From Styela clava (Eukaryota): a stretch of DNA of 64,000 bases. The DNA lies in NCBI RefSeq assembly GCF_964204865.1, contig NC_135261.1:9796001-9860000 (forward strand), read 5' to 3'. A model generated the notes under the pieces. That model was not told the origin of the DNA. It saw nothing but the letters and a program-made list of their open reading frames with translations, and made no database searches. The position numbers were made by a program, and so were the translations under genes. Below are positions 7,762 through 29,371 of this stretch, piece after piece; position 1 is the first letter of the stretch; every line of letters starts with the position of its first letter.

Positions 7762-10700
7762 ATGAATCAGATTCGCAAACTTTCCAGAATGGTCGTTTTC
7801 TGGATAAGTTTGTCTGTTTTCGTTTGTGCATTTTCTACGGGTGAGTAACTAAAATTTATACATATATAATATATATATATATATATATTGCAAGAAAAAT
7901 TACATTACGTGACTGTTTAGAATTCAGCATTGAATACCATTATTGTATTTCGTATGTAGGCTATCGTAACTTTTACTTTACTATACCAACTTGTGATTTA
8001 CAACTTAGATATACTCAAATATATATGTATTGCTTTCTCAATATATATATATATTACCGTAACTGTTTTAGTTCACTACATAGCAAGTGTCCAAAAGTAT
8101 TTATCAGTCTTGTTCTGAGCTTTCACCTAGGATTAAAACAAATACCGTGATATTCAATCGGATTTATAAACTACAACATGTGTGGTTGATAGTCTGCGTC
8201 CCTCTCAGATGACAATTATAAGTGAGTCTAGATATGTACGCTATATATATGTATACAGTAGCGGTTAATCCGGTTACCATGACCCCAATCGGAGCCTAAT
8301 ATTCTTCTGCGAATGAGCAATAAACAAGAAGAAATGCATATTATGTTTTCAGCATAATTTATGTATAATTTTCGAATCCTAATCCTAATGTATGCAGCTT
8401 TCCATAATACACATTTTGATCTTCTATTACAGCCAACGCGTCATATCGTACGGAGGAAGCTTTACATCAACATTTATTTGGACGAGGATACAACAAAAAT
8501 ATTCTCCCCACACAGAGGTCGCACGAATTTATCAATGTTTTCCTGGGAATATCCGTTAATCAAATAGTTGATTTGGATGAACAAAGACTAATGATGACAA
8601 CCAGTTTGTGGGTCGACCAGGTATCATGTTGATTATACGTTGATCGCACATTATCTATGAGGCATTTAAAATGTCTCAAATTTATAAATAAAATCATTTC
8701 TGAATATTTATTCATATGGTAATATACTAAATTATTTGGTTCAAATACGATACCTGACAAAAATCAGTTCAAGGACAAAGACTCTCGGCCAAACAGTTGG
8801 GATAAAGAAACGTCATATATATATATAGTCGATTATTCGATATTTATTGGAATTATACCAGATTTAAACATTGATACTAATATCGCTCGCTCTCATAATA
8901 GTTCTTTGCGTTCATTTACTCAAAATGACGCTATGAAGTGTGGGTTATCATACATTGTAATTTCATCTTATATTCTAGTCTTGGCAGGATATTTTTCTTC
9001 GTTGGAATCCTGAAGAGTTTGATAATATCACAAGTACAAGAATTCCATCAGATTTCATCTGGATTCCTGGTATTGTACTCATGGAAAAGTATGAATTTTG
9101 TCTATCACTTTTGTTACCATCCATCGCATACTTGATCACCATTGTTCAATTTGCTAAAAATTTGGTTTTTGAAAAATACGATACGATAAAAAACTTGGTT
9201 GTTTTTCGGAAGATGCAGAAGTACCAATTAAATCTTTTTGCATTCATCATTCGATCCCCAGATTATATAACTTCTACCTCATGACGTCGCAAATTGAACT
9301 AAATTGTTGGACGCAAAGTGAACTCATAGATCATTATGCTAATTTGTTGTTATTATTGTAAAACACCGCTTTTCTGAGCAAATACTGGACAAATTGATTT
9401 CAAATTTTCATTATTGAAGAAGTCGCTAGAGAGATAATTTTTTCGGATCGTACGGGGACGAAATTCAATCCAAAATTTTGTTGATTTATCAACCGCAACA
9501 CAGCATCCACAATCCTTCATATGACATCTGGTACAACTATTTTCAAATCTGGCAGGAAATTTTCTGATAACACAGTATTTGAGTATTGTTTTTTCTCTTT
9601 TTACTGTACCTATTCATTCAGGGTTTTGTCTTTCCCATAAAACTTATGATCTGGTTGAATAAACGAAATGAATAAGTGAAACATTGCTCACAGTTGTACA
9701 CGCTTTTGCCAATTTACACGTATCACTTCTACGTACTCCTTTTTCATTTCAGTGCGGACGGTAATTTCACCTCTTCTCATCCAACTAAGGCAGTCATACG
9801 TTACGATGGTTTGGTGCAATGGAGTCCACCTGCAGTATATAAAAGCACTTGTGCAATAGACGCAACCTTCTTTCCATTTGATATGCAAAATTGTACAATG
9901 AAATTTGGTGAGTTATTGCACCAATTTGGACGTTAGAGGATTTGTATAATGAATTACGGGACTTTTGCCTGTTGCCCAGCTTCGATAACATCCATATCTG
10001 TAGTGGTACTAAGTTTTCGTGATAGTCCGATTCATGGAATCAAAATCTTTTTATCTTAAGTTATCTTAATTATCTTTAAGTTATCTTGTTTGCAGTCGAC
10101 TCAAACCGAGCGTTTGAAATACCCAAAGTTGGCTGATTTACTTTGTTTTGAACTGAAAACTGTGTTTTCTCTTCCACATTGGTCGTTTTAGAAACTAAAT
10201 AACCAACCGATTGATACTTACATGTTTATTATGACAATTATATGTTAATTATGTAACAGCATCGTGGTCATACGACGCAAGACAAGTGAGACTTTATGCA
10301 TCAGAAAAAGCTGTAAGTTGCATTTTCATTTTATATCTGCATATGTTTGGTTGGTAATTTGTCTCAGTGATTTGAATAAATATTATTTCTAGACTTAAGA
10401 ATTTTAAATTGTTTATGAAAGATAATTTGAACTGAGAGCGTTAAACTATTCGTCCAATCTCAATTCGACTTATAATATCAAGTTATAACCAACTAAAAAG
10501 TCAAGTTGATACAACTTTTTTATGCTGACAAAACACAAACAAATAACATGCATTTATAGGTTAGTCTCAGAAAATTCACTCATAATGGAGAGTGGGATGT
10601 GGTTGATATACATGTCATCAATTCAGAAGGAGATAGCTTGTGAGTATCTGAAACCTTGATATCAATCTTGCCTCAATGATATACAATCGCAATTTTTTCT

Positions 10701-13253
10701 ATGTTTTAGGCTTAGTCACCATTAACATTATTTTAACAGACAAGAAGACGAGGAAAACTGGTCACACAGTATCTTCTCGCATCCTAAAGTAACTTATTGT
10801 TTTATATTGCGACGACTACCGCTCTTTTACTGTACATTTCTCATTGCTCCATGTCTTGGAATATCATTTCTTACATGTAAGTATCCATCGGTACTGAAAA
10901 CCACATTAGGATAATTAGCTCCGGCGTCGAACGTGGACAACGATCTTTTTACTAGGCAAAACTGGTGCCTATTATTCTATAGTAAGTTATAAATAGTAAT
11001 AAGTTGGAAAATCATAATTTAGTGCACATCAAATAATGCATTTAAATGAAAATTCGTGTTTACGTTCTCTGATTACTGACTCTAATAATAAACGAAACTA
11101 TATTTTTGAAGCTAAGTGCCGTATTATATTTAATTTAAATAATATGGGAATTTTAAGACAAATATTTTGTGCTTGGTCGTACAAGTAATTTTTACTTTTT
11201 CTGATTTTTTTACAGCTTTAGTCTTCTACCTACCCTCGGCCTCACAGGAAAAAATTACTTTATCTATCTCAGTTCTGCTGGCTCATATTTTCTATCTTCT
11301 TGTCATAACTGAAATAATGCCAGCATCGTCGAAGGATTTGCCATTACTTGCTGAATATCTTTTACTAAACATGATTTTTATCACTCTGTCTATTGTATTG
11401 ACGTCGGTGGTGTTGAATGTTCATTATCGATCTGAGACAAGTCACAGGTATGCTATCGTAAACTAACCAGCAATTCGTGTTAATTTGCAATTCAGCGTTG
11501 GTTTTCTGCAGCTCAATGAAACCTTGCAAGACAAAAAAAATTTGCTGTTTTACGGTTTTGCCATAACTTATAAAATAATTCATATACAACAACTTTTTAT
11601 GCTATGAATTTTTATTGATTTTCTTTGGTCGCTACATTGCAAAGTTGTCTCAAAGATATCCTATCCCACTTTCCCTGTTTCACATTCATCTGGATCTTCC
11701 ACATTTGTCACGCCCGTACCACTGTTATGAATTGGAAAAGATATGAAAAAACATAAGGAAAATGACTAGAGTAATATAAGTGGTATTCGAGGTATGTTAT
11801 GGGTTAGGATAAAAGATACAAAAGATAATGATGATGACGTAACAATGCCCAATAAGCGCTGTTGAAGATATTATTGTGGCGGACATCGTCCGGAGAATTG
11901 AATTCGTCGCCCCTTTCGCTTATCAAACGATTAATTGAACGATTTTGACAATCGTATCGAAATTTGGAATGGATTCAAATGTGGGGCTCTTTACCTGCTC
12001 TGGAGTAGTAGTACAAGTGTGCGTTGATTGGGACACGATATTTTTGAGACACCCACCTTGCACCACGTATTTTATTTTCACGGATTACGTATTTGGTAAA
12101 TCTCACCTTTTTGCAGAAGTTTACCGTCATTTATCCGCTCATTCGTTCTTGAGACGGTTCCTACTTTAATATGGATGGAAAAGCCTGACCTGACAATACT
12201 TAGAGGAACCTCATTGGAACAGAAAATGAAAAACGGCTTGCTGTTTAAGAAAGAAAATCTCATTATGTAATTTTACTTACGTTCAGTCTAGCGTTTGGCA
12301 AATAACATATCATAGCCAAATATTTTCACTAAACATTGGTATCTGTTCGCCAAAGTTAGACAGTGTTTATATATATATCAGAAATTATGAACAATACTTT
12401 ACGTAACTGTATGTCGCTGTTTCAGTGTACTAAGTTTCATGAAGAAAAATTAAAAATTGAATTTCATGTTCCCATCTTTTCAAGAAACTTAAATTGAAGC
12501 ATATACTGCATCAGATTGAATTGGTCAATATTAGCTTAAGGGTTTCAAAAGTATAACAGCACGAAAGTTTAAGACATTTGCGTATTTTCGTTTGTATATT
12601 TTTGGCCCAAGCATCGTTTAACTAGGTTTGTGTTTTGTGTCGATTTTTATTTGTGCTGATGAGCGGGCATATGATATCTTTCATGTTTTAAACTTTTTCA
12701 AATGAAGGCTGATGTTACGAGCTTCACTTGACAATGGTCGTAACCAAGGTTATCACATTTTAATCTTCACTATAGTCTTGTATCATATTCAATTAACAGT
12801 TTATATTTTATTTATGAAACATATAAATGTAAATTTCAGAGGGCGACATCTACTAAAAGAGCTAAGAAGATGTACAAAACTACCTGATAATCTTTGCACA
12901 CAGCTTGGCGGAACGATAGAAAGTGCGTTTTTCATTGCAGAAAAATTGAAACAAAAACTTCATCACCAACAGGTAAGTGATTGTGTGTTAGTTAGAATAC
13001 AATAATTTTTTTTTATATAAATCAAATTGGTTTAAGTAATTTCGCGATTTTCTTTTATCAGGAATCTGAGGAGTGGAGGTTCATCGCAAACGTGCTCGAT
13101 CGAGTATTCTTCATTTTATTTCTTACTGTGTCTGTATTGGGAGCCTTGATTTTGATTCTGCCGGCATGGTTTGATAAAAGCTATCTGTTGTATAAACAAA
13201 GAGAATTTGAGACAACGGAACATGGTATCGGTTTTGAGACAAATCTGCGCTAA
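7762..13253 (+). CDS. Cys-loop ligand-gated cation channel subunit, nAChR family, non-alpha type; 11 exons (7762-7840, 8433-8620, 8979-9088, 9753-9907, 10260-10312, 10560-10639, 10740-10876, 11216-11447, 12117-12266, 12840-12972, 13062-13253), 502 aa
   Basis: Exons total 1509 nt, in frame. Signal peptide, [17 protein letters not shown], Cys-loop [15 protein letters not shown], loop B SWSYD, RRLPLFY before M1, M2 [23 protein letters not shown]3 ending VLNVHYR, M4 [14 protein letters not shown]. No vicinal Cys pair in loop C. Confidence 0.93.
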
Positions 13254-22333: not shown

Positions 22334-23075
22334 TCAATCAGAGTCACTTGCACACAGAAGAATTAATTTAGTAATGGGCCTATCTAAGATTGAATGGTTG
22401 GTTTGCACCGTAGCAGAACGTACACGACCTTTGTTGTCGGGAAACGTTGCAATGATTCTACCCAACAGCCATGCATTTCTTGGCAAATTTTCATCCATCA
22501 CAAGTACAACATCATTCTTAGCTAAATTCCTTTGAACTTTGTTCCATTTTTGTCTTGTTTGAAGCAGAGGAAGGTATTGTCGTCTCCATCTTTTCCAAAA
22601 CACATCAGCTAAGTATTGTACTTGTTTCCATCTCTTACGAACATACAAGTCTTTAGCATCAAATACTCCTGGAGGAAGTATCGGTTCTTCTTTCAACAAC
22701 AACAAATTGTTCGGGCTCAAAGGTGTCAAATCTTTTGGATCATTGGATACAGTTGTTATTGGCCTTCCATTCACTATGGATTCACATTCACACATAAGTG
22801 TAATTAAGCTTTCATCAGTTAATTTTTGTTCTCTGCAAATAGCGTTGAAAATTTTTCTAATTGTTCTGATTTGTCTCTCAAAAACTCCACCATGGTGAGA
22901 AGCCGCTGGAGTTTGAAACAGCCACTTGATGTTCTTTTGCAGCAAAAACCTATGTATTTGATTCTGATTCCAAGTCTTGATAGAATTTCTCAATTCTTGT
23001 TCTCCAGAGACAAAATTTGTTCCATTATCTGATCTTATTTCAACTACTTGTCCTCTTCTTGAAATGAATCTTCTA
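22334..23075 (-). pseudogene. C-terminal part of BEL/Pao integrase, out of frame with the polyprotein
   Basis: RRFISRRG..IRSDNGTNF, ASHHGGVFERQIR, FWKRWRRQYL, RPITKL. The HHCC zinc finger and first catalytic Asp are missing. Confidence 0.9.
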
Positions 23076-26000
23076 ACTTGGATAATTCTGATATCCACTT
23101 TAGCCATTCCTGTTCACACTCTGGAGGAATTGAATCGTCCCATCCCAGCTTCTTCCTGCACAATCCTTGCATAAGGACCTTCATAGGTTGAATGACCGGC
23201 TGGCCAATGCCAAGAGGGTCAAATATTGAGTTCACAACACCCAGCATACCCCGTCTGGTAGCTGGTCGTTCAGTGTATTTAGTACTGAAACTTATTGTAT
23301 CTTCATTTGCGTTCCATATCATGCCAAGAGCTCGCTCAACAGGCAATTCATCTATAGAGATATCCAAACGCTTTGCTTCCTTCGATCGGTGAGCTTCTGG
23401 AATTGAGGCCAATACTTCACGGTCATTGCTCACCCATTTCGTCACTTCAAAACCACCTTTAGCAGCAATTTCAGTAACACTCTTTATATGTTGGAGGGCA
23501 CTAGCAGCATCCGGCTTAGAATCACAAAAATCATCAACATAAAATGAATCATTAATTGCATCAATCACACTTTGTTCAAAATCATTTTTGTTATCTATTG
23601 CAGTTTGTTTCAAAGCGAAGTTGCAACAACTTGGAGAGCACACAGTTCCAAAGAGAAAAACCGACATTCTATAAATTTTCATGGGTAAAGTGATGTCACC
23701 ATTTTCCCACCAGAAGAAACGGAGGAAATTTCTATCACATTCTTTCACCTTTACCTGATGAAACATGGACCGTATATCCCCTTGAACAGCTACAATATTT
23801 TTGCGAAAGCGTGACAAGACTCCAACTAAATTATTTGTTAAATCCGGCCCCTGTAACAGGATGTCATTAAATGAAATTCCTTCTGATTTTGCTGAGCAAT
23901 CAAATACAACCCTTAACGTTTTCTTCTCTGGATGACGAACTCCGTGATGGCTGAGGTACCAAGTCCTTCCTTCTTCTTCATTGGTATTCAGAACTTCTTC
24001 AGCATACCCCATTGTTATCATATTTGCAACAAAATCCTTGTATTCTGCATAAAATTCCGGTTCCTTGTGAAGACGACGCTTTAATGATTCTGCTCGCTGC
24101 AAAACTTGATATTTATTTGAGTGCAACTTAACATCAGGATTCTTCAATGGTAAACCTATTTCGTAATGTCCATCAGTTCTGAGCTTAATTGACTTACTAA
24201 CTTTGTCGAGAAAAACTTGTTGAATTGGTGAAACCTCATCTTTTTCATTAATTGCAGAATCAACAACATCTGCACACATTTGGCACAAAGGATTTAGTTG
24301 AGATTTGGTGAAATATGTAGAATTTTTGGTATTTCCATTTTTCGCAGGGCAGTTAACCATCCATCCAGCAATTGTCTTCGATGCAAAATAATTGTTTGGG
24401 CCATAAATCACTTCCAATGGTTTATGCAAACCAAGATTATCTTTGCCAATCAAGAGCTCCACATCACATTCTACTTTGGGTAGCACAATACCATTAAATT
24501 CTTTAAATTGATCAAGATCACTTTGTGTAGGGATATCTGTTTGATCAACACCAATTTGATCGTTTGAAAACAAGGGATTTAACCTTACATATTTTGACTC
24601 CTCAAAATCTGCCAGTTCGAGGTTCTTTATAACAGTGCATTGCTTGTGTTCCACGGTATTATTTATAGTACGAATGTTCAAATTTGTAACTGGTCCATTG
24701 ACCTTTAATTTATTCATTAGCGAATTGCTTATAAAAGAGCAAGTCGATCCATTGTCAAAGAATGCATTGGTTATAACAGCATTTCTTCTACCAGCTATGC
24801 GTACCTTAACAGGTACAACATTGAGCAAAACCTTTTGTTCGTCAGAGGCATTCAGGAATGCATTAAATTTGGTTTCAGACATCTGTGTCCTATAATCATT
24901 ATGTGTTTGTGTAGTACTTTCATGACTACTTGATGTAGGGACTTTTATTGGTTCCTTATCCGGAGGATGAAGAAGTGTTGTGTGTTTTCTTCTGCAGTTT
25001 GCATTTTTGCAAGGGTTGTTTCGTTTACATTCCCTGACCCAATGCCCAGATAATAAACATGAAAAACACAACTTTTGCTTTTTTACAAACTCCAATCTCT
25101 TATCATACGTCATGCCTCGAAATTCATCGCATTGATTTAAGTAATGATCTCCATCACATTTTACACATCTGCGTACAGGTCTATTATTATGAACTGTAGT
25201 TGCAAATGAGGATTTGTATGGCCTCGAGCCTCTTGTGGAAATAATTTGTTTTGATGTATTAAATTCGATAGAGGGAACATTGCATACTTCTCTAGTTTTC
25301 TTACGGACGTAATCAGCAAGATCCTCTATTGTTAGGTCTTTTTTCTTTATTTGTAGTACATTGTCCATCTTTGATAACCACCCAGATCTCCATTCAGGCG
25401 GCATTCTTAAAGCTATTTTTTCTATGGTCATAAGGGCAACATTTTTGTATTCAACCCCTATCAACGTATTTTTGCATGACATGATTTCTGCTGAATACAC
25501 AGTTAATGATTCTTTGTTACTCAAATTCAGTCGAGGACCATTTGCTATGGAATTAATGCAGGATTCGCCAATTTGAAATTTCTGACCATAAGTTTCTTCA
25601 AGTAATCGGATAGCTTCATCATAGCTATCTGTTCTGTGCTGGCATCCCTTAACCAAAGCACGAGCAGGGCCTTTTGTATATTGAAGAAGATAAACTAGTT
25701 TGTGCTTTGGATTTTGTAATCTGCTACCAATTACGGTTTCAAAAATATCAATGAAATCCCTATATTCACCTGCATTACCACAAAATACAGGGGGTTCAGA
25801 TGGTGGCAAACCTAAAGTTTGAGGCACATATATAACTTGAGGGTTAGCTGCTTGTTGATTCGAAATATTGTCATTCTGTGCATTTGCATTACTTGGTTGA
25901 CTGCCCACAATAGGCTTTCGAATTGAGCCAATATTCACTGAGTGCATTGCCTCTGCATTTTCAATTCTGCCAGGATTATCTATTAGTGTTGGTAATGTAG

Positions 26001-27456
26001 GGTTCATATTAACAGCCGAACTAGTCGTATGCAATGGAATAGTATTGAATGAAGTTGGAAATTTCGTTAATATTTCACTGTGGTTCGTTCCAGCCCCAGT
26101 GTAAATTGCATTGCTCTGCAATTGTCTGTTATCACCCACACATGACATTGGAATTTCACAACACCTTAAACTTGGCTTAGATACACATGATGCAGGTACA
26201 CAGGAAGTCAAACCAGAATTCACCACACTACAAGAGCTCACAAACAAATTTTCAGATGTTAACGGTATTTGGGCCATGTCACACACAGATTCAACAACAG
26301 TCACACATGCACTCGGGACCATTTGTGGACGGCAAACCCCAAAATCAGAGGAGGAATAAGAAACTGACTCACCATGCTCTGCGGTGTTCACACGTTCACT
26401 TGGTCGACCCTCACAATGCACATCACAACTTCTAGAGACAGGTAATTGATTAGGTGTTGAAAATGGTGTACTTAAAGCTGGTATTATTGGACTGGTCACA
26501 TTTAATATTTTTGTTTGTTTCATAGAGGAATTTGATGGCTGCTGACTGATTTCGACACTAGCAGCAACAGGGGGCGTATTTATAAGAACGCCTCTTTCTG
26601 CTAAAGTTTCATTTAAATTAGTGTCCAGTTCCAATTGTTCACGTTGATTTTTGTCTTCAATTTCTTGTAGGTTCATCTGCTTCCTCTTGTTGAACTGCTC
26701 CATCTCGATGTTTCTTCGTTGTAGCATTTGTTGGCGACGATGTTGAAAAGCTTCCAGTTCGGCCTTTCTCTTACGCTCTTCAGCTTGCTGTTTTTGTAGA
26801 ATCTGTTGCCACTCATTGTCTAAATTTAAGTTTTCAACTTGATTGTTATTTTCCCAAATTTGTTTCTCACTTTCTAGGCGATTTTGCAATTGTTGTTTCT
26901 CCAATTCTGTGCGCCTTTGTTGATTCAGCTTTCTTGTTTCGAATATATTCTCAATTTGTGAATCACTCAAATTGGACATTCTTGTTGAGCATGAAGATCG
27001 CGACCGAATTGTACCACTGCGTGATGTTATCAAACTTCGCATTACTGATCTATGTTGCTGACTATTTATTTTTGAAGTCCTGCTTTTATTTGTCTTTATC
27101 TTCGACCTTGTTGTCATAGCATGCGCATTTGTTGATCCTTCTTTAGCAAGGCCAGATGCTACAGATGCTCCTTGGTTGTTCTTTTCTGAACTTGGTTGGA
27201 CATCTGACTCTACATCAGGACTTCTTAGGAACAGATCTTTGATTGACGCACTATGACAATCTTTAGAAGTTGATTGACTTTCATTAGGCAAAACAGGAAT
27301 TATACCTTGTGTTGGAATAGTCAGCAAAGCAATTACATTATTTTCAGTTGCTTCAGAAAATCCAGTAATCGACATATTTTCTAACATATCATTGTCTCTG
27401 TTCACTAGTTCATCAGCGGCAGCTGGTTCATTGATGTTGTCATTTGATTCGGCCAT
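23044..27456 (-). CDS. BEL/Pao Gag-protease-reverse transcriptase polyprotein, truncated before RNase H
   Basis: Three Gag Cys/His knuckles (CVKCDGDHYLNQC, CFSCLLSGHWVREC, CKNANCRRKHTTLLH), protease AFFDNGST, RT motifs LRVVFDCS, LLQGPDL, GDIRSMF and FYVDD. Ends just after WLKWISELSKL. Confidence 0.93.
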   Translation of the reverse strand: MAESNDNINEPAAADELVNRDNDMLENMSITGFSEATENNVIALLTIPTQGIIPVLPNESQSTSKDCHSASIKDLFLRSPDVESDVQPSSEKNNQGASVASGLAKEGSTNAHAMTTRSKIKTNKSRTSKINSQQHRSVMRSLITSRSGTIRSRSSCSTRMSNLSDSQIENIFETRKLNQQRRTELEKQQLQNRLESEKQIWENNNQVENLNLDNEWQQILQKQQAEERKRKAELEAFQHRRQQMLQRRNIEMEQFNKRKQMNLQEIEDKNQREQLELDTNLNETLAERGVLINTPPVAASVEISQQPSNSSMKQTKILNVTSPIIPALSTPFSTPNQLPVSRSCDVHCEGRPSERVNTAEHGESVSYSSSDFGVCRPQMVPSACVTVVESVCDMAQIPLTSENLFVSSCSVVNSGLTSCVPASCVSKPSLRCCEIPMSCVGDNRQLQSNAIYTGAGTNHSEILTKFPTSFNTIPLHTTSSAVNMNPTLPTLIDNPGRIENAEAMHSVNIGSIRKPIVGSQPSNANAQNDNISNQQAANPQVIYVPQTLGLPPSEPPVFCGNAGEYRDFIDIFETVIGSRLQNPKHKLVYLLQYTKGPARALVKGCQHRTDSYDEAIRLLEETYGQKFQIGESCINSIANGPRLNLSNKESLTVYSAEIMSCKNTLIGVEYKNVALMTIEKIALRMPPEWRSGWLSKMDNVLQIKKKDLTIEDLADYVRKKTREVCNVPSIEFNTSKQIISTRGSRPYKSSFATTVHNNRPVRRCVKCDGDHYLNQCDEFRGMTYDKRLEFVKKQKLCFSCLLSGHWVRECKRNNPCKNANCRRKHTTLLHPPDKEPIKVPTSSSHESTTQTHNDYRTQMSETKFNAFLNASDEQKVLLNVVPVKVRIAGRRNAVITNAFFDNGSTCSFISNSLMNKLKVNGPVTNLNIRTINNTVEHKQCTVIKNLELADFEESKYVRLNPLFSNDQIGVDQTDIPTQSDLDQFKEFNGIVLPKVECDVELLIGKDNLGLHKPLEVIYGPNNYFASKTIAGWMVNCPAKNGNTKNSTYFTKSQLNPLCQMCADVVDSAINEKDEVSPIQQVFLDKVSKSIKLRTDGHYEIGLPLKNPDVKLHSNKYQVLQRAESLKRRLHKEPEFYAEYKDFVANMITMGYAEEVLNTNEEEGRTWYLSHHGVRHPEKKTLRVVFDCSAKSEGISFNDILLQGPDLTNNLVGVLSRFRKNIVAVQGDIRSMFHQVKVKECDRNFLRFFWWENGDITLPMKIYRMSVFLFGTVCSPSCCNFALKQTAIDNKNDFEQSVIDAINDSFYVDDFCDSKPDAASALQHIKSVTEIAAKGGFEVTKWVSNDREVLASIPEAHRSKEAKRLDISIDELPVERALGMIWNANEDTISFSTKYTERPATRRGMLGVVNSIFDPLGIGQPVIQPMKVLMQGLCRKKLGWDDSIPPECEQEWLKWISELSKLEDSFQEEDK

Positions 27457-29371
27457 ATTTTCAAAAACTTTGTTGCAGTATTGCAAATGTCAAAAAACTA
27501 ATGTAGACGCCAAATTTGGAGTGCCTTTAGCGCCCACACCAGGTGTATTTCTTAGATGGTCGATCTGTTTTAGTAAACTGATTTTGTCACTCCAATGCAA
27601 AAAGACGCGTACAACAGTACAAGTTGATGTCGTTTATTGTCAGGAAAGTACAGGTGTATGAAGATACGTCGGTACGATGTTATAGGTATGATAATACAAC
27701 AGTACGTGATTACGACAATACGTGGATACGAGAGTACGTCAGTACGAGAGTACATCAATACGTGTACGGGAAGTACGGCAGTACGGTTTTCTAAATAAAA
27801 CAAACAATAATTACAACAAATAATGTGCCGGCAAGAAATAACTCGACAATTGAAATCATTAACTAAACAAAATTGTACACATTAGAACTGAACTTAACAT
27901 ACGCAGGTTTACGCCAGTATAATAACAGTTGCGGCTGATTACAAAAGTGGTCATTATAGAACACGGTACAACCGAAATATTCCTTAAATATAAAAACAAT
28001 AAACTGAAATACGTACTTGACAGTGTAGCTTTCAGCTTACAAAACAATCGACAGTTGATTGGGACAGTTATTGAAATTAAGTTAATGTTATTAAATCTAA
28101 ATATACGAAAATACAATTAAAACCTTGGAACTACAAATCTCCAGACAACGAAAACCTTGCACCACAAATCCCACAGTCCTGAGAAGGTCGAATCAAGGTA
28201 CTGAAGCAGCGCGCGCAGCAAACGCGCACGGGGTATTATGATGTCACAATCACTAAAATCTGTGAACGTATGTACCACCAGCGCCTCCAGTGGTAAACAA
28301 CAAAAAATATAATGAAGCGAAAGAGGCAGTTTCAGGTGGTATTGTATAATATTTTATGCGGATAGGAATAATGAGTCAAAGAGGTTTCAAGGTAGGAAAT
28401 ATTAGCGTCACTTTATTTTTGGAAAATTTTGATAGTTGTACCAGCTACCAGTATACCTTCACCAATTTGGAACCGAGATTCAAAGAATTAGGTGTAATTC
28501 ATGGATCTGACGACAGATAAATAACTTTGTTAGTAGACACGCAATGGGCCTTTGATACATTTTGCTAGATTGCTGTGGTCCTGTGGTATTGTTGTACAGA
28601 AAAATCATTTTTTCGCATCAATTAATATACTGTGTTTCGAATTTTTAGTGCGTGGTTGAGTTTGCTAAAAGGCTTTTACTTTTTTTTTATTAATATTTTG
28701 TCCGTTATTTGTCGATTATGTTAGCAAATTCGACGCAAAGCTAGAAAACTAAGGTCTTGAGGTGCCGGTATACCCATGCGCAACATTCGTAACCACATAA
28801 TTGAGCATCGTTCGTGTATTTGGTTTCATACTGCATTTGAAGTTCTGTTTGCATATCAAATATATTTTTTAAAACTACCGGGCCCCAGCCATTTTTAAGT
28901 TTTGTTCACGGATTTTTGATAAAGAAAATAGTCGAGAAGCCCTGTACACTGCAACATTGCACCACAATTTCACTTTGTCAAAAGTTGCAGATTTAAAATA
29001 TATTTAAAAATGAACTTTTAATTAACCAAATCCTGTAATATTCCGAAAAATCTTGTTGCTGATGAGTATATATATATATATCTTTCAGTCTCTTGGGTAG
29101 CAATTGATCATGTTTCTGCAAAATAATGATAAAAATAGCGGAATCAGATTTTAATCAAATGGATATATATATAACTCACTACACAACTTTAGGCCATCAG
29201 CAGTATTTTCATGCCCAAACGGACGATATATTCACCGGGTGTTTTGGGTTAATTCTTAACCATTGTCAGCCTTGCCTTACCAAATTTATTATTACTGTGT
29301 ATGGAAAACACGACTGTGAAAACTACAGCTTACCTTTTTGTGTTATTAAACTGAGTATTTCGAAATGTATG

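What the first reader, a model, noticed from the sequence alone, without database searches (positions are those of the whole stretch)
11216..11447. nAChR-type subunit with a GLIC-like histidine at M2 11' and Phe at 13'
Seen: M2 reads E(-1')K(0')ITLSISVLL(9')A-H(11')-I-F(13')YLLVITE(20'). Known: nAChRs typically have S/A-L-T-V at 10'-13', while the proton-gated bacterial channel GLIC has I-A-H-I at 9'-12', with His11' (H235) implicated in gating. Position 13' lines the pore and is normally Val. The cation-selective rings E-1' and E20' are retained. Inference: convergent acquisition of a titratable M2 residue, suggesting a pH-sensitive subunit or one with modified gating and conductance.
Basis: partly seen in the sequence, partly recalled or inferred. 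Interest (0 to 1): 0.7.

Follow-up and report, generated by a model that had tools for sequence, protein, structure and literature searches.

The report
Sea-squirt accessory nicotinic subunit, altered pore
This is the sea-squirt counterpart of the vertebrate alpha5/beta3 acetylcholine-receptor subunits, and its unusual pore-helix histidine, found in every tunicate-type copy examined, likely acts as an uncharged brace that tunes channel opening rather than as an acid sensor.

Summary
In detail: exon 8 (11216-11447) of an 11-exon, spliced nicotinic receptor gene encodes M2 with L9'-A10'-H11'-I12'-F13'-Y14', E-1' and E20'. The protein equals a Styela clava 'beta-3-like' record. With M2 removed it groups with Ciona and Oikopleura orthologues as sister to vertebrate alpha5/beta3 accessory subunits (99/96). 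H11', F13' and Y14' are fixed in all 6 distinct M2-M3 types of this clade, but I12' occurs in 1 of 6, so part of the GLIC likeness is accidental. The cluster of fixed changes at 10'-14' exceeds chance (p=0.00024), so it is selected. The pH-sensor reading is weak. Polar 11' residues recur in ordinary subunits: Gln in gamma and delta, Glu in two paralogues of this genome. Phe13' occurs in vertebrate beta4. GLIC H235 itself is reported to be mainly structural (H235Q is still proton-gated), and the site matching GLIC's sensor E35 is Leu or Gln here. Most likely H11' is a neutral M2-M3 hydrogen-bonding residue that tunes gating from one accessory position. pH modulation (about 15%) is untested, not excluded.

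The parts
7789..13253 (+). 11-exon gene for a non-alpha nicotinic receptor subunit of the alpha5/beta3 group (493 codons from the ATG at 7789; the NCBI model P0123 starts 9 codons earlier, 502 aa)
   Evidence: exon model; P0123; Pfam LBD and TM domains; joints
7789..7840 (+). exon 1, signal peptide
8433..8620 (+). exon 2; holds loop 2 (Leu at the site matching GLIC E35) and the loop D Trp
8979..9088 (+). exon 3; loop A without its Tyr (Met-Glu instead)
9753..9907 (+). exon 4; Cys loop
10260..10312 (+). exon 5; loop B with its Trp
10560..10639 (+). exon 6; start of loop C
10740..10876 (+). exon 7; lengthened acidic loop C without vicinal cysteines, and most of M1 (with the Phe and Gly shared with alpha5/beta3)
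11216..11447 (+). exon 8; end of M1, M2, M2-M3 loop, M3
11248..11313 (+). M2 from E-1' to E20'
   Evidence: unbroken helix 280-301 in the model
11281..11295 (+). tunicate M2 signature A10'-H11'-(I12')-F13'-Y14'; His codon 11284-11286, Phe codon 11290-11292
12117..12266 (+). exon 9; cytoplasmic loop
12840..12972 (+). exon 10; cytoplasmic loop and MA helix
13062..13253 (+). exon 11; M4 and stop

Best explanation
The gene encodes the tunicate orthologue of the vertebrate alpha5/beta3 subunits, which likely fills the single accessory place of an acetylcholine-gated cation channel, and its His11' likely stays uncharged and would hydrogen-bond M2 to M3 to tune opening. Shown: gene structure, splicing, orthology, loss of the alpha-type loop A Tyr and loop C cysteines, and fixation of H11'/F13'/Y14' across the clade. 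Inferred: partners are the alpha3-like and beta2/4-like subunits of the same genome. His11' faces the four-helix bundle as in GLIC and bonds to the M3 backbone or to the polar M3 residue at 39' (Thr or Asn in all 6 types), which would favour the open state. Phe13' would narrow the upper pore from one side and change blocker sensitivity, as beta4 Phe255 partly does. The M3 Val-to-Ile change at 43' would repack the bundle behind them.
For: Tree without M2: clade 96/98, sister to alpha5/beta3 99/96; same grouping with 45 rows; union with the beta/gamma/delta/epsilon group rejected, p-AU 0.0006. A published phylogeny gives CHRNA5/CHRNB3 one basal tunicate relative (PMC6354393, passages). Beta3 works only as an accessory subunit (PMC4113361, passages). 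Position 11' faces the intrasubunit bundle in GLIC (PMC8635979); H235 bonds to the I259 carbonyl and H235Q lowers pH50 by about 1.3 but still gates (PMC8504973; PMC5760087). Uncharged Gln11' recurs: 6 of 166 M2s, 29 of 117, Torpedo gamma. Phe13' in beta4 shifts blocker potency 2- to 3-fold in some measures (PMC5128878). M3 43' matches, by my alignment, the alpha V285 site; M1 and M3 kinetic variants are said to face the bundle core (bioRxiv 2024.12.13.624530, passage).
Against: No function was measured. The AlphaFold model gave no side-chain coordinates, so the His-M3 contact is untested. His is never replaced by Gln, one base change away, in 6 distinct types, which a specifically titratable role would also explain. 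In GLIC the transmembrane domain alone can confer pH gating and His11' contributes to proton sensitivity (PMC4586589, passages). The subunit has diverged far (end branches about 1-1.5 changes per column), so accessory behaviour is carried over from vertebrates, not shown.
Confidence: 0.62

Rival explanations
1. His11' titrates near physiological pH, so the subunit makes acetylcholine-gated receptors pH-modulated (protonation strengthens the M2-M3 bond and favours opening).
For: His, not Gln, in 6 of 6 clade types. GLIC His11' contributes to proton sensitivity and the GLIC membrane domain can sense pH in a chimera (PMC4586589). The change is selected.
Against: A charged His is said to be hardly accommodated at this buried site in GLIC (PMC5760087). 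GLIC's pH50 in the construct read is near 5.4 (deduced from the table), far below seawater or body-fluid pH (about 8 and 7-8, own knowledge). One accessory copy per pentamer would dilute any effect (inference). Gln11' is fixed just as firmly in gamma and delta without being titratable.
Confidence: 0.15
2. The 10'-14' changes serve folding or assembly (they set which neighbours the subunit accepts and keep it to one place in the ring) with little effect on gating.
For: H235A abolishes GLIC expression (PMC5760087). 10' and 14' face neighbouring helices rather than the pore (own knowledge), and they changed together with 11' and M3 43'.
Against: Phe13' lines the pore and is fixed as well; 11' mutants of GLIC change gating strongly.
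Confidence: 0.14
3. The changes were near-neutral in a fast-evolving accessory subunit and were then locked in by mutual packing, with no adaptive function.
For: Long branches in the clade; 12' varies among Thr, Ile and Glu, and -1' between Glu and Gln.
Against: Four fixed changes within five residues (p=0.00024); M2 is identical at 15 of 21 positions in three orthologues that share only 59 of 209 extracellular positions.
Confidence: 0.06
4. The subunit forms a GLIC-like channel opened by protons alone.
For: A10'-H11'-I12' in this species matches GLIC (H235 = 11'; the flanking GLIC residues are recalled). Loop C here is long, acidic and His-bearing.
Against: The site matching E35 is Leu, Gln, Gln in the three full-length rows. 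A 22-residue M2 query finds 3 nicotinic sequences and no GLIC at E<=10. The 31 listed fold matches are all nicotinic receptors. The acidic loop C is not shared by the Ciona row.
Confidence: 0.03

Closest known systems
Vertebrate nAChR alpha5 and beta3 (CHRNA5/CHRNB3 accessory subunits)
   Same: Sister group in the tree; top vertebrate hits, 41-44% identity; no loop A Tyr, acidic residue after it, M1 Phe and Gly, Thr5' in most clade types.
   Different: All 78 alpha5/beta3-type M2s held read V9'-S10'-L11'-T12'-V/I13'-F14'; this clade has L9'-A-H-x-F-Y.
Ciona intestinalis nAChR subunit BAJ65315.1 / NP_001265902.1 (P0125)
   Same: Orthologue, 46-47% identical, with A10'-H11'-F13'-Y14'.
   Different: Thr12' instead of Ile; different loop C. 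No functional data found; the 2011 PNAS paper on Ciona receptors was not held.
Muscle gamma and delta subunits (A10'-Q11') and tunicate beta/gamma/delta/epsilon-like subunits (G10'-E11')
   Same: Polar residue at 11' in ordinary ACh-gated non-alpha subunits.
   Different: Separate lineage (p-AU 0.0006); Gln or Glu rather than His; Val or Ile at 13'.
GLIC (Gloeobacter proton-gated channel)
   Same: His at 11' facing the helix bundle.
   Different: Bacterial homopentamer; proton sensing centred on E35 and spread over several sites; no acid at the matching site here.
Vertebrate nAChR beta4
   Same: Phe at 13' (F255; PMC5128878; also P0001).
   Different: Complementary subunit with Leu11'. The beta2/4-like gene of this genome has Val13', so tunicates carry the pore Phe on another subunit.

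Membership tests
Cys-loop nicotinic receptor subunit | Ligand-binding domain, 13-residue Cys loop, four membrane helices | tested here: met
   PF02931 E=2.9e-60 and PF02932 E=5e-42; Cys159-Cys173; model pLDDT 88, best folds are alpha4beta2 and muscle receptors
nAChR alpha (principal) subunit | Vicinal cysteines in loop C and loop A Tyr | tested here: not met
   Neither is present
alpha5/beta3 accessory subfamily | Phylogenetic grouping with CHRNA5/CHRNB3 | tested here: met
   99/96 with M2 columns removed, 26 rows; SH-aLRT 96 with 45 rows
alpha5/beta3 accessory subfamily | Shared residues outside M2 (loop A, M1 Phe and Gly) | tested here: met
   Alignment printed; M1 Gly is in the Styela and Ciona rows, not the Oikopleura row
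alpha5/beta3 accessory subfamily | Val at M2 9' | tested here: not met
   Leu9' in all clade types; Val9' in 78 of 78 vertebrate alpha5/beta3-type M2s
alpha5/beta3 accessory subfamily | Enters receptors only with an alpha and a beta subunit and forms no ACh site | not testable with these tools
   Needs expression experiments
cation-selective pLGIC | Glu at -1', no Pro insertion at -2' | tested here: met
   E-1' and Q-2'; the Oikopleura type has Gln-1'
GLIC-type proton-gated channel | His at M2 11' | tested here: met
GLIC-type proton-gated channel | Acidic proton sensor in loop 2 (E35) | tested here: not met
   Leu, Gln, Gln three residues after the conserved loop-2 Glu; the match of that Glu to GLIC D32 is from own knowledge
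GLIC-type proton-gated channel | His11' hydrogen bond to the M3 backbone | not testable with these tools
   The structure tool returned no coordinates
GLIC-type proton-gated channel | Current evoked by low pH | not testable with these tools
   Needs electrophysiology

The most novel reading that the evidence does not exclude
Tunicates turned their alpha5/beta3-type accessory subunit into a pH dial: a buried M2 histidine, gained independently of GLIC and kept from appendicularians to ascidians, makes a chordate acetylcholine receptor respond to acidification of the synaptic cleft or of seawater.
Probability: 0.15. Interest if true: 0.7.

Novelty: new variant of a known kind. Interest (0 to 1): 0.32.

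Why it matters
Vertebrate alpha5 and beta3 tune receptors from one place in the ring, and how they do so is only partly understood. A chordate orthologue that keeps Leu9' but has rewritten 10'-14' is a natural experiment on that question. It is also a natural eukaryotic test of the disputed role of GLIC's His11' (brace or proton sensor): one H11'Q/H11'L series would settle it for this receptor. If the histidine did titrate, it would give a molecular route from acidification to tunicate behaviour. On the likelier reading it is a lineage-specific tuning of a known subunit.

Tried and rejected
Origin of His11' from the Gln11'/Glu11' lineage: rejected. Sequencing or annotation artefact: rejected, the codon is intact in the 4 runs laid and present in orthologues. 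GLIC-like M2 as a whole: a 22-residue query found no GLIC at E<=10, a weak test. Structure prediction worked but gave no coordinates, so the contact could not be measured. No complex was folded: a pass would follow from likeness to solved receptors. The run search listed no holder on record as RNA; X1-X3 are guessed RNA, and only their intron-skipping joints are used. Papers not held and so not seen: Nishino 2011, Cymes 2005 and 2008, Wang 2012, Rienzo 2014; they may bear on 11' protonation and on the name and expression of the Ciona gene. No supplements were read; the sequence list of PMC6354393 might show whether its tunicate relative is BAJ65315.1. Searches for prior description (listings only) showed no title or abstract start on a tunicate His11' subunit; that is not proof of absence. 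A Ciona 'Chrnb' expressed in the MGIN2 neuron (bioRxiv 641233, passages) could not be tied to this gene. Look-ups of earlier findings returned nothing.

Full report
Observation. The interval is exon 8 of an 11-exon gene at 7789-13253 (+). All ten introns have GT..AG ends and the joined frame is open for 493 codons. It agrees with P0123, an NCBI protein named 'beta-3-like [Styela clava]'. Three RNA-like runs join all ten introns. Nine joints read GT..AG; the tenth is a 573-base skip, the length of predicted intron 9, which the tool placed 4 bases upstream in the same frame. Listed variants next to these codons are silent.

What the gene is. It has a Cys loop and loop B Trp, but no loop A Tyr and no vicinal cysteines. 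Its best vertebrate single-gene matches are mostly beta3 and alpha5. In a 26-row tree with M2 cut out, the Styela, Ciona and Oikopleura proteins form a clade (96/98) that is sister to alpha5/beta3 (99/96); a 45-row quick tree agrees. Rows were picked by hand from my hits; long-branched outgroups were left out of the 26-row tree. Forcing the clade together with the beta/gamma/delta/epsilon group is rejected (p-AU 0.0006). Pedersen 2019 (PMC6354393, passages) reports one basal tunicate relative of CHRNA5/CHRNB3; I did not see its accession. A beta2/4-like gene lies about 250 kb away on the same contig, on the opposite strand, which recalls the vertebrate CHRNA5-A3-B4 cluster (own knowledge).

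The M2 signature. Among 583 stored records, the clade shows 6 distinct complete M2-M3 types, plus two partial Oikopleura-type fragments. All have H11', F13' and Y14'. Position 12' is Thr in 4, Ile in 1 (this species) and Glu in 1. Only Styela, Ciona and Oikopleura are named; the other types are unnamed records placed in the clade by this segment alone. Of 176 columns conserved in alpha2-6/beta3-type rows, 8 are fixed differently in the three full-length tunicate rows: four in M2 10'-14', one in M3 (43', Val to Ile) and three elsewhere (p=0.00024 for the cluster, post hoc). So M2 was rewritten once on the tunicate stem and then held.

How unusual. In the best 150 of 23,782 representatives (166 complete M2s of 170 domains), 11' is Leu 100, Met 24, Phe 10, Ile 8, Gln 6, Val 5, Tyr 4, His 4, Glu 2, other 3; 13' is Phe in 14. 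Three of the 4 His and 3 of the 14 Phe are this clade, which the profile favours. The fourth His is an independent case in Seison nebaliae. In 120 short hits (117 complete M2s of 121), 11' is Leu 82, Gln 29, His 5 (all of this clade), Val 1. Torpedo gamma reads A10'-Q11'-T12', and fish delta and gamma have Gln11' too. Two paralogues in this genome have G10'-E11', and a Styela alpha7-like protein has Gln11'. His at 11' is therefore rare, but a polar 11' is a recurring feature of ordinary receptors. Phe13' is the natural residue of vertebrate beta4 (PMC5128878, passages).

What GLIC says. I read passages, not whole texts. H235 is 11' and faces the intrasubunit bundle (PMC8635979). It bonds to the I259 carbonyl of M3, and H235Q lowers pH50 by about 1.3 units by disfavouring the open state (PMC8504973). 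[quoted passage not shown] H11'F is rescued by I9'A and stays pH dependent, though the authors credit His11' with a contribution, and the GLIC membrane domain alone senses pH in a chimera (PMC4586589). Earlier papers that proposed H235 as the sensor were not held. The site matching E35 is Leu here and Gln in Ciona and Oikopleura. GLIC's A10' and I12' are recalled, not from a call.

Mechanism. Most likely (0.62) the subunit takes the accessory place beside alpha3-like and beta2/4-like subunits, as beta3 does (PMC4113361, passages), and neutral His11' ties M2 to M3 and tunes opening, while Phe13' shapes the upper pore from one side. The residue at M3 39' is Thr or Asn in all 6 types and could be the partner. 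These steps are inferred. The model has high confidence (pLDDT 88) and matches nicotinic receptors but gave no side-chain distances. Rivals: pH modulation 0.15, assembly role 0.14, entrenched drift 0.06, proton gating 0.03. The best point for pH modulation is that His was never swapped for Gln.

Novelty. The gene is annotated, its Ciona orthologue is a deposited cDNA, and the subfamily is known. My searches listed nothing on the M2 signature, but the main Ciona paper could not be read. I rate it a new variant of a known kind, interest 0.32; 0.7 if pH modulation were shown.

Noticed in passing
window 12117-12972: NCBI holds a 395-aa protein ending in intron 9 (P0004) and a 116-aa protein for the rest (P0122) beside the older 502-aa model (P0123). 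Three RNA-like runs join exon 9 to exon 10, which favours the single 502-aa model.
   Followed up: yes
G000:C9:12167947-12168126 (L005/L018) and C9:15127413-15127580 (L006/L019): Two beta/gamma/delta/epsilon-like subunits carry Glu at M2 11', a buried acidic residue also seen in a Ciona protein (P0330); L019 appears to have Gln-1'.
   Followed up: partly
G000:C8:9380202-9381659 (L021, L029): A third such gene seems to read G10'-L11'-P12'-V13'-Y14' across an intron, a Pro in mid-M2 where the Ciona protein P0300 has Thr. The splice was read by eye. A 12' Pro in human epsilon causes slow-channel disease (recalled).
   Followed up: no
G000:C16:10055572-10058015 (L004/L009/L014/L031): beta2/4-like gene about 250 kb from this gene, opposite strand; possible relic of the CHRNA5-A3-B4 linkage.
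   Followed up: partly
P0015 (unnamed record): An Oikopleura-type orthologue with about 150 extra Cys-rich residues inserted in loop C; could be real or an assembly artefact.
   Followed up: no
P0324 (Seison nebaliae): Independent A10'-H11'-I12'-V13' with Gly-1' and Arg20' in a very long-branched subunit.
   Followed up: partly
window 22334-27489 (-): BEL/Pao-type LTR retrotransposon: a 1481-aa frame with DUF1759, RT and Peptidase_A17 hits and a separate 259-aa frame with DUF5641.
   Followed up: partly
window 10560-10876: Loop C of this species' subunit is lengthened and rich in Glu, Asp and His; the orthologues have loop C extensions of other sequence.
   Followed up: no
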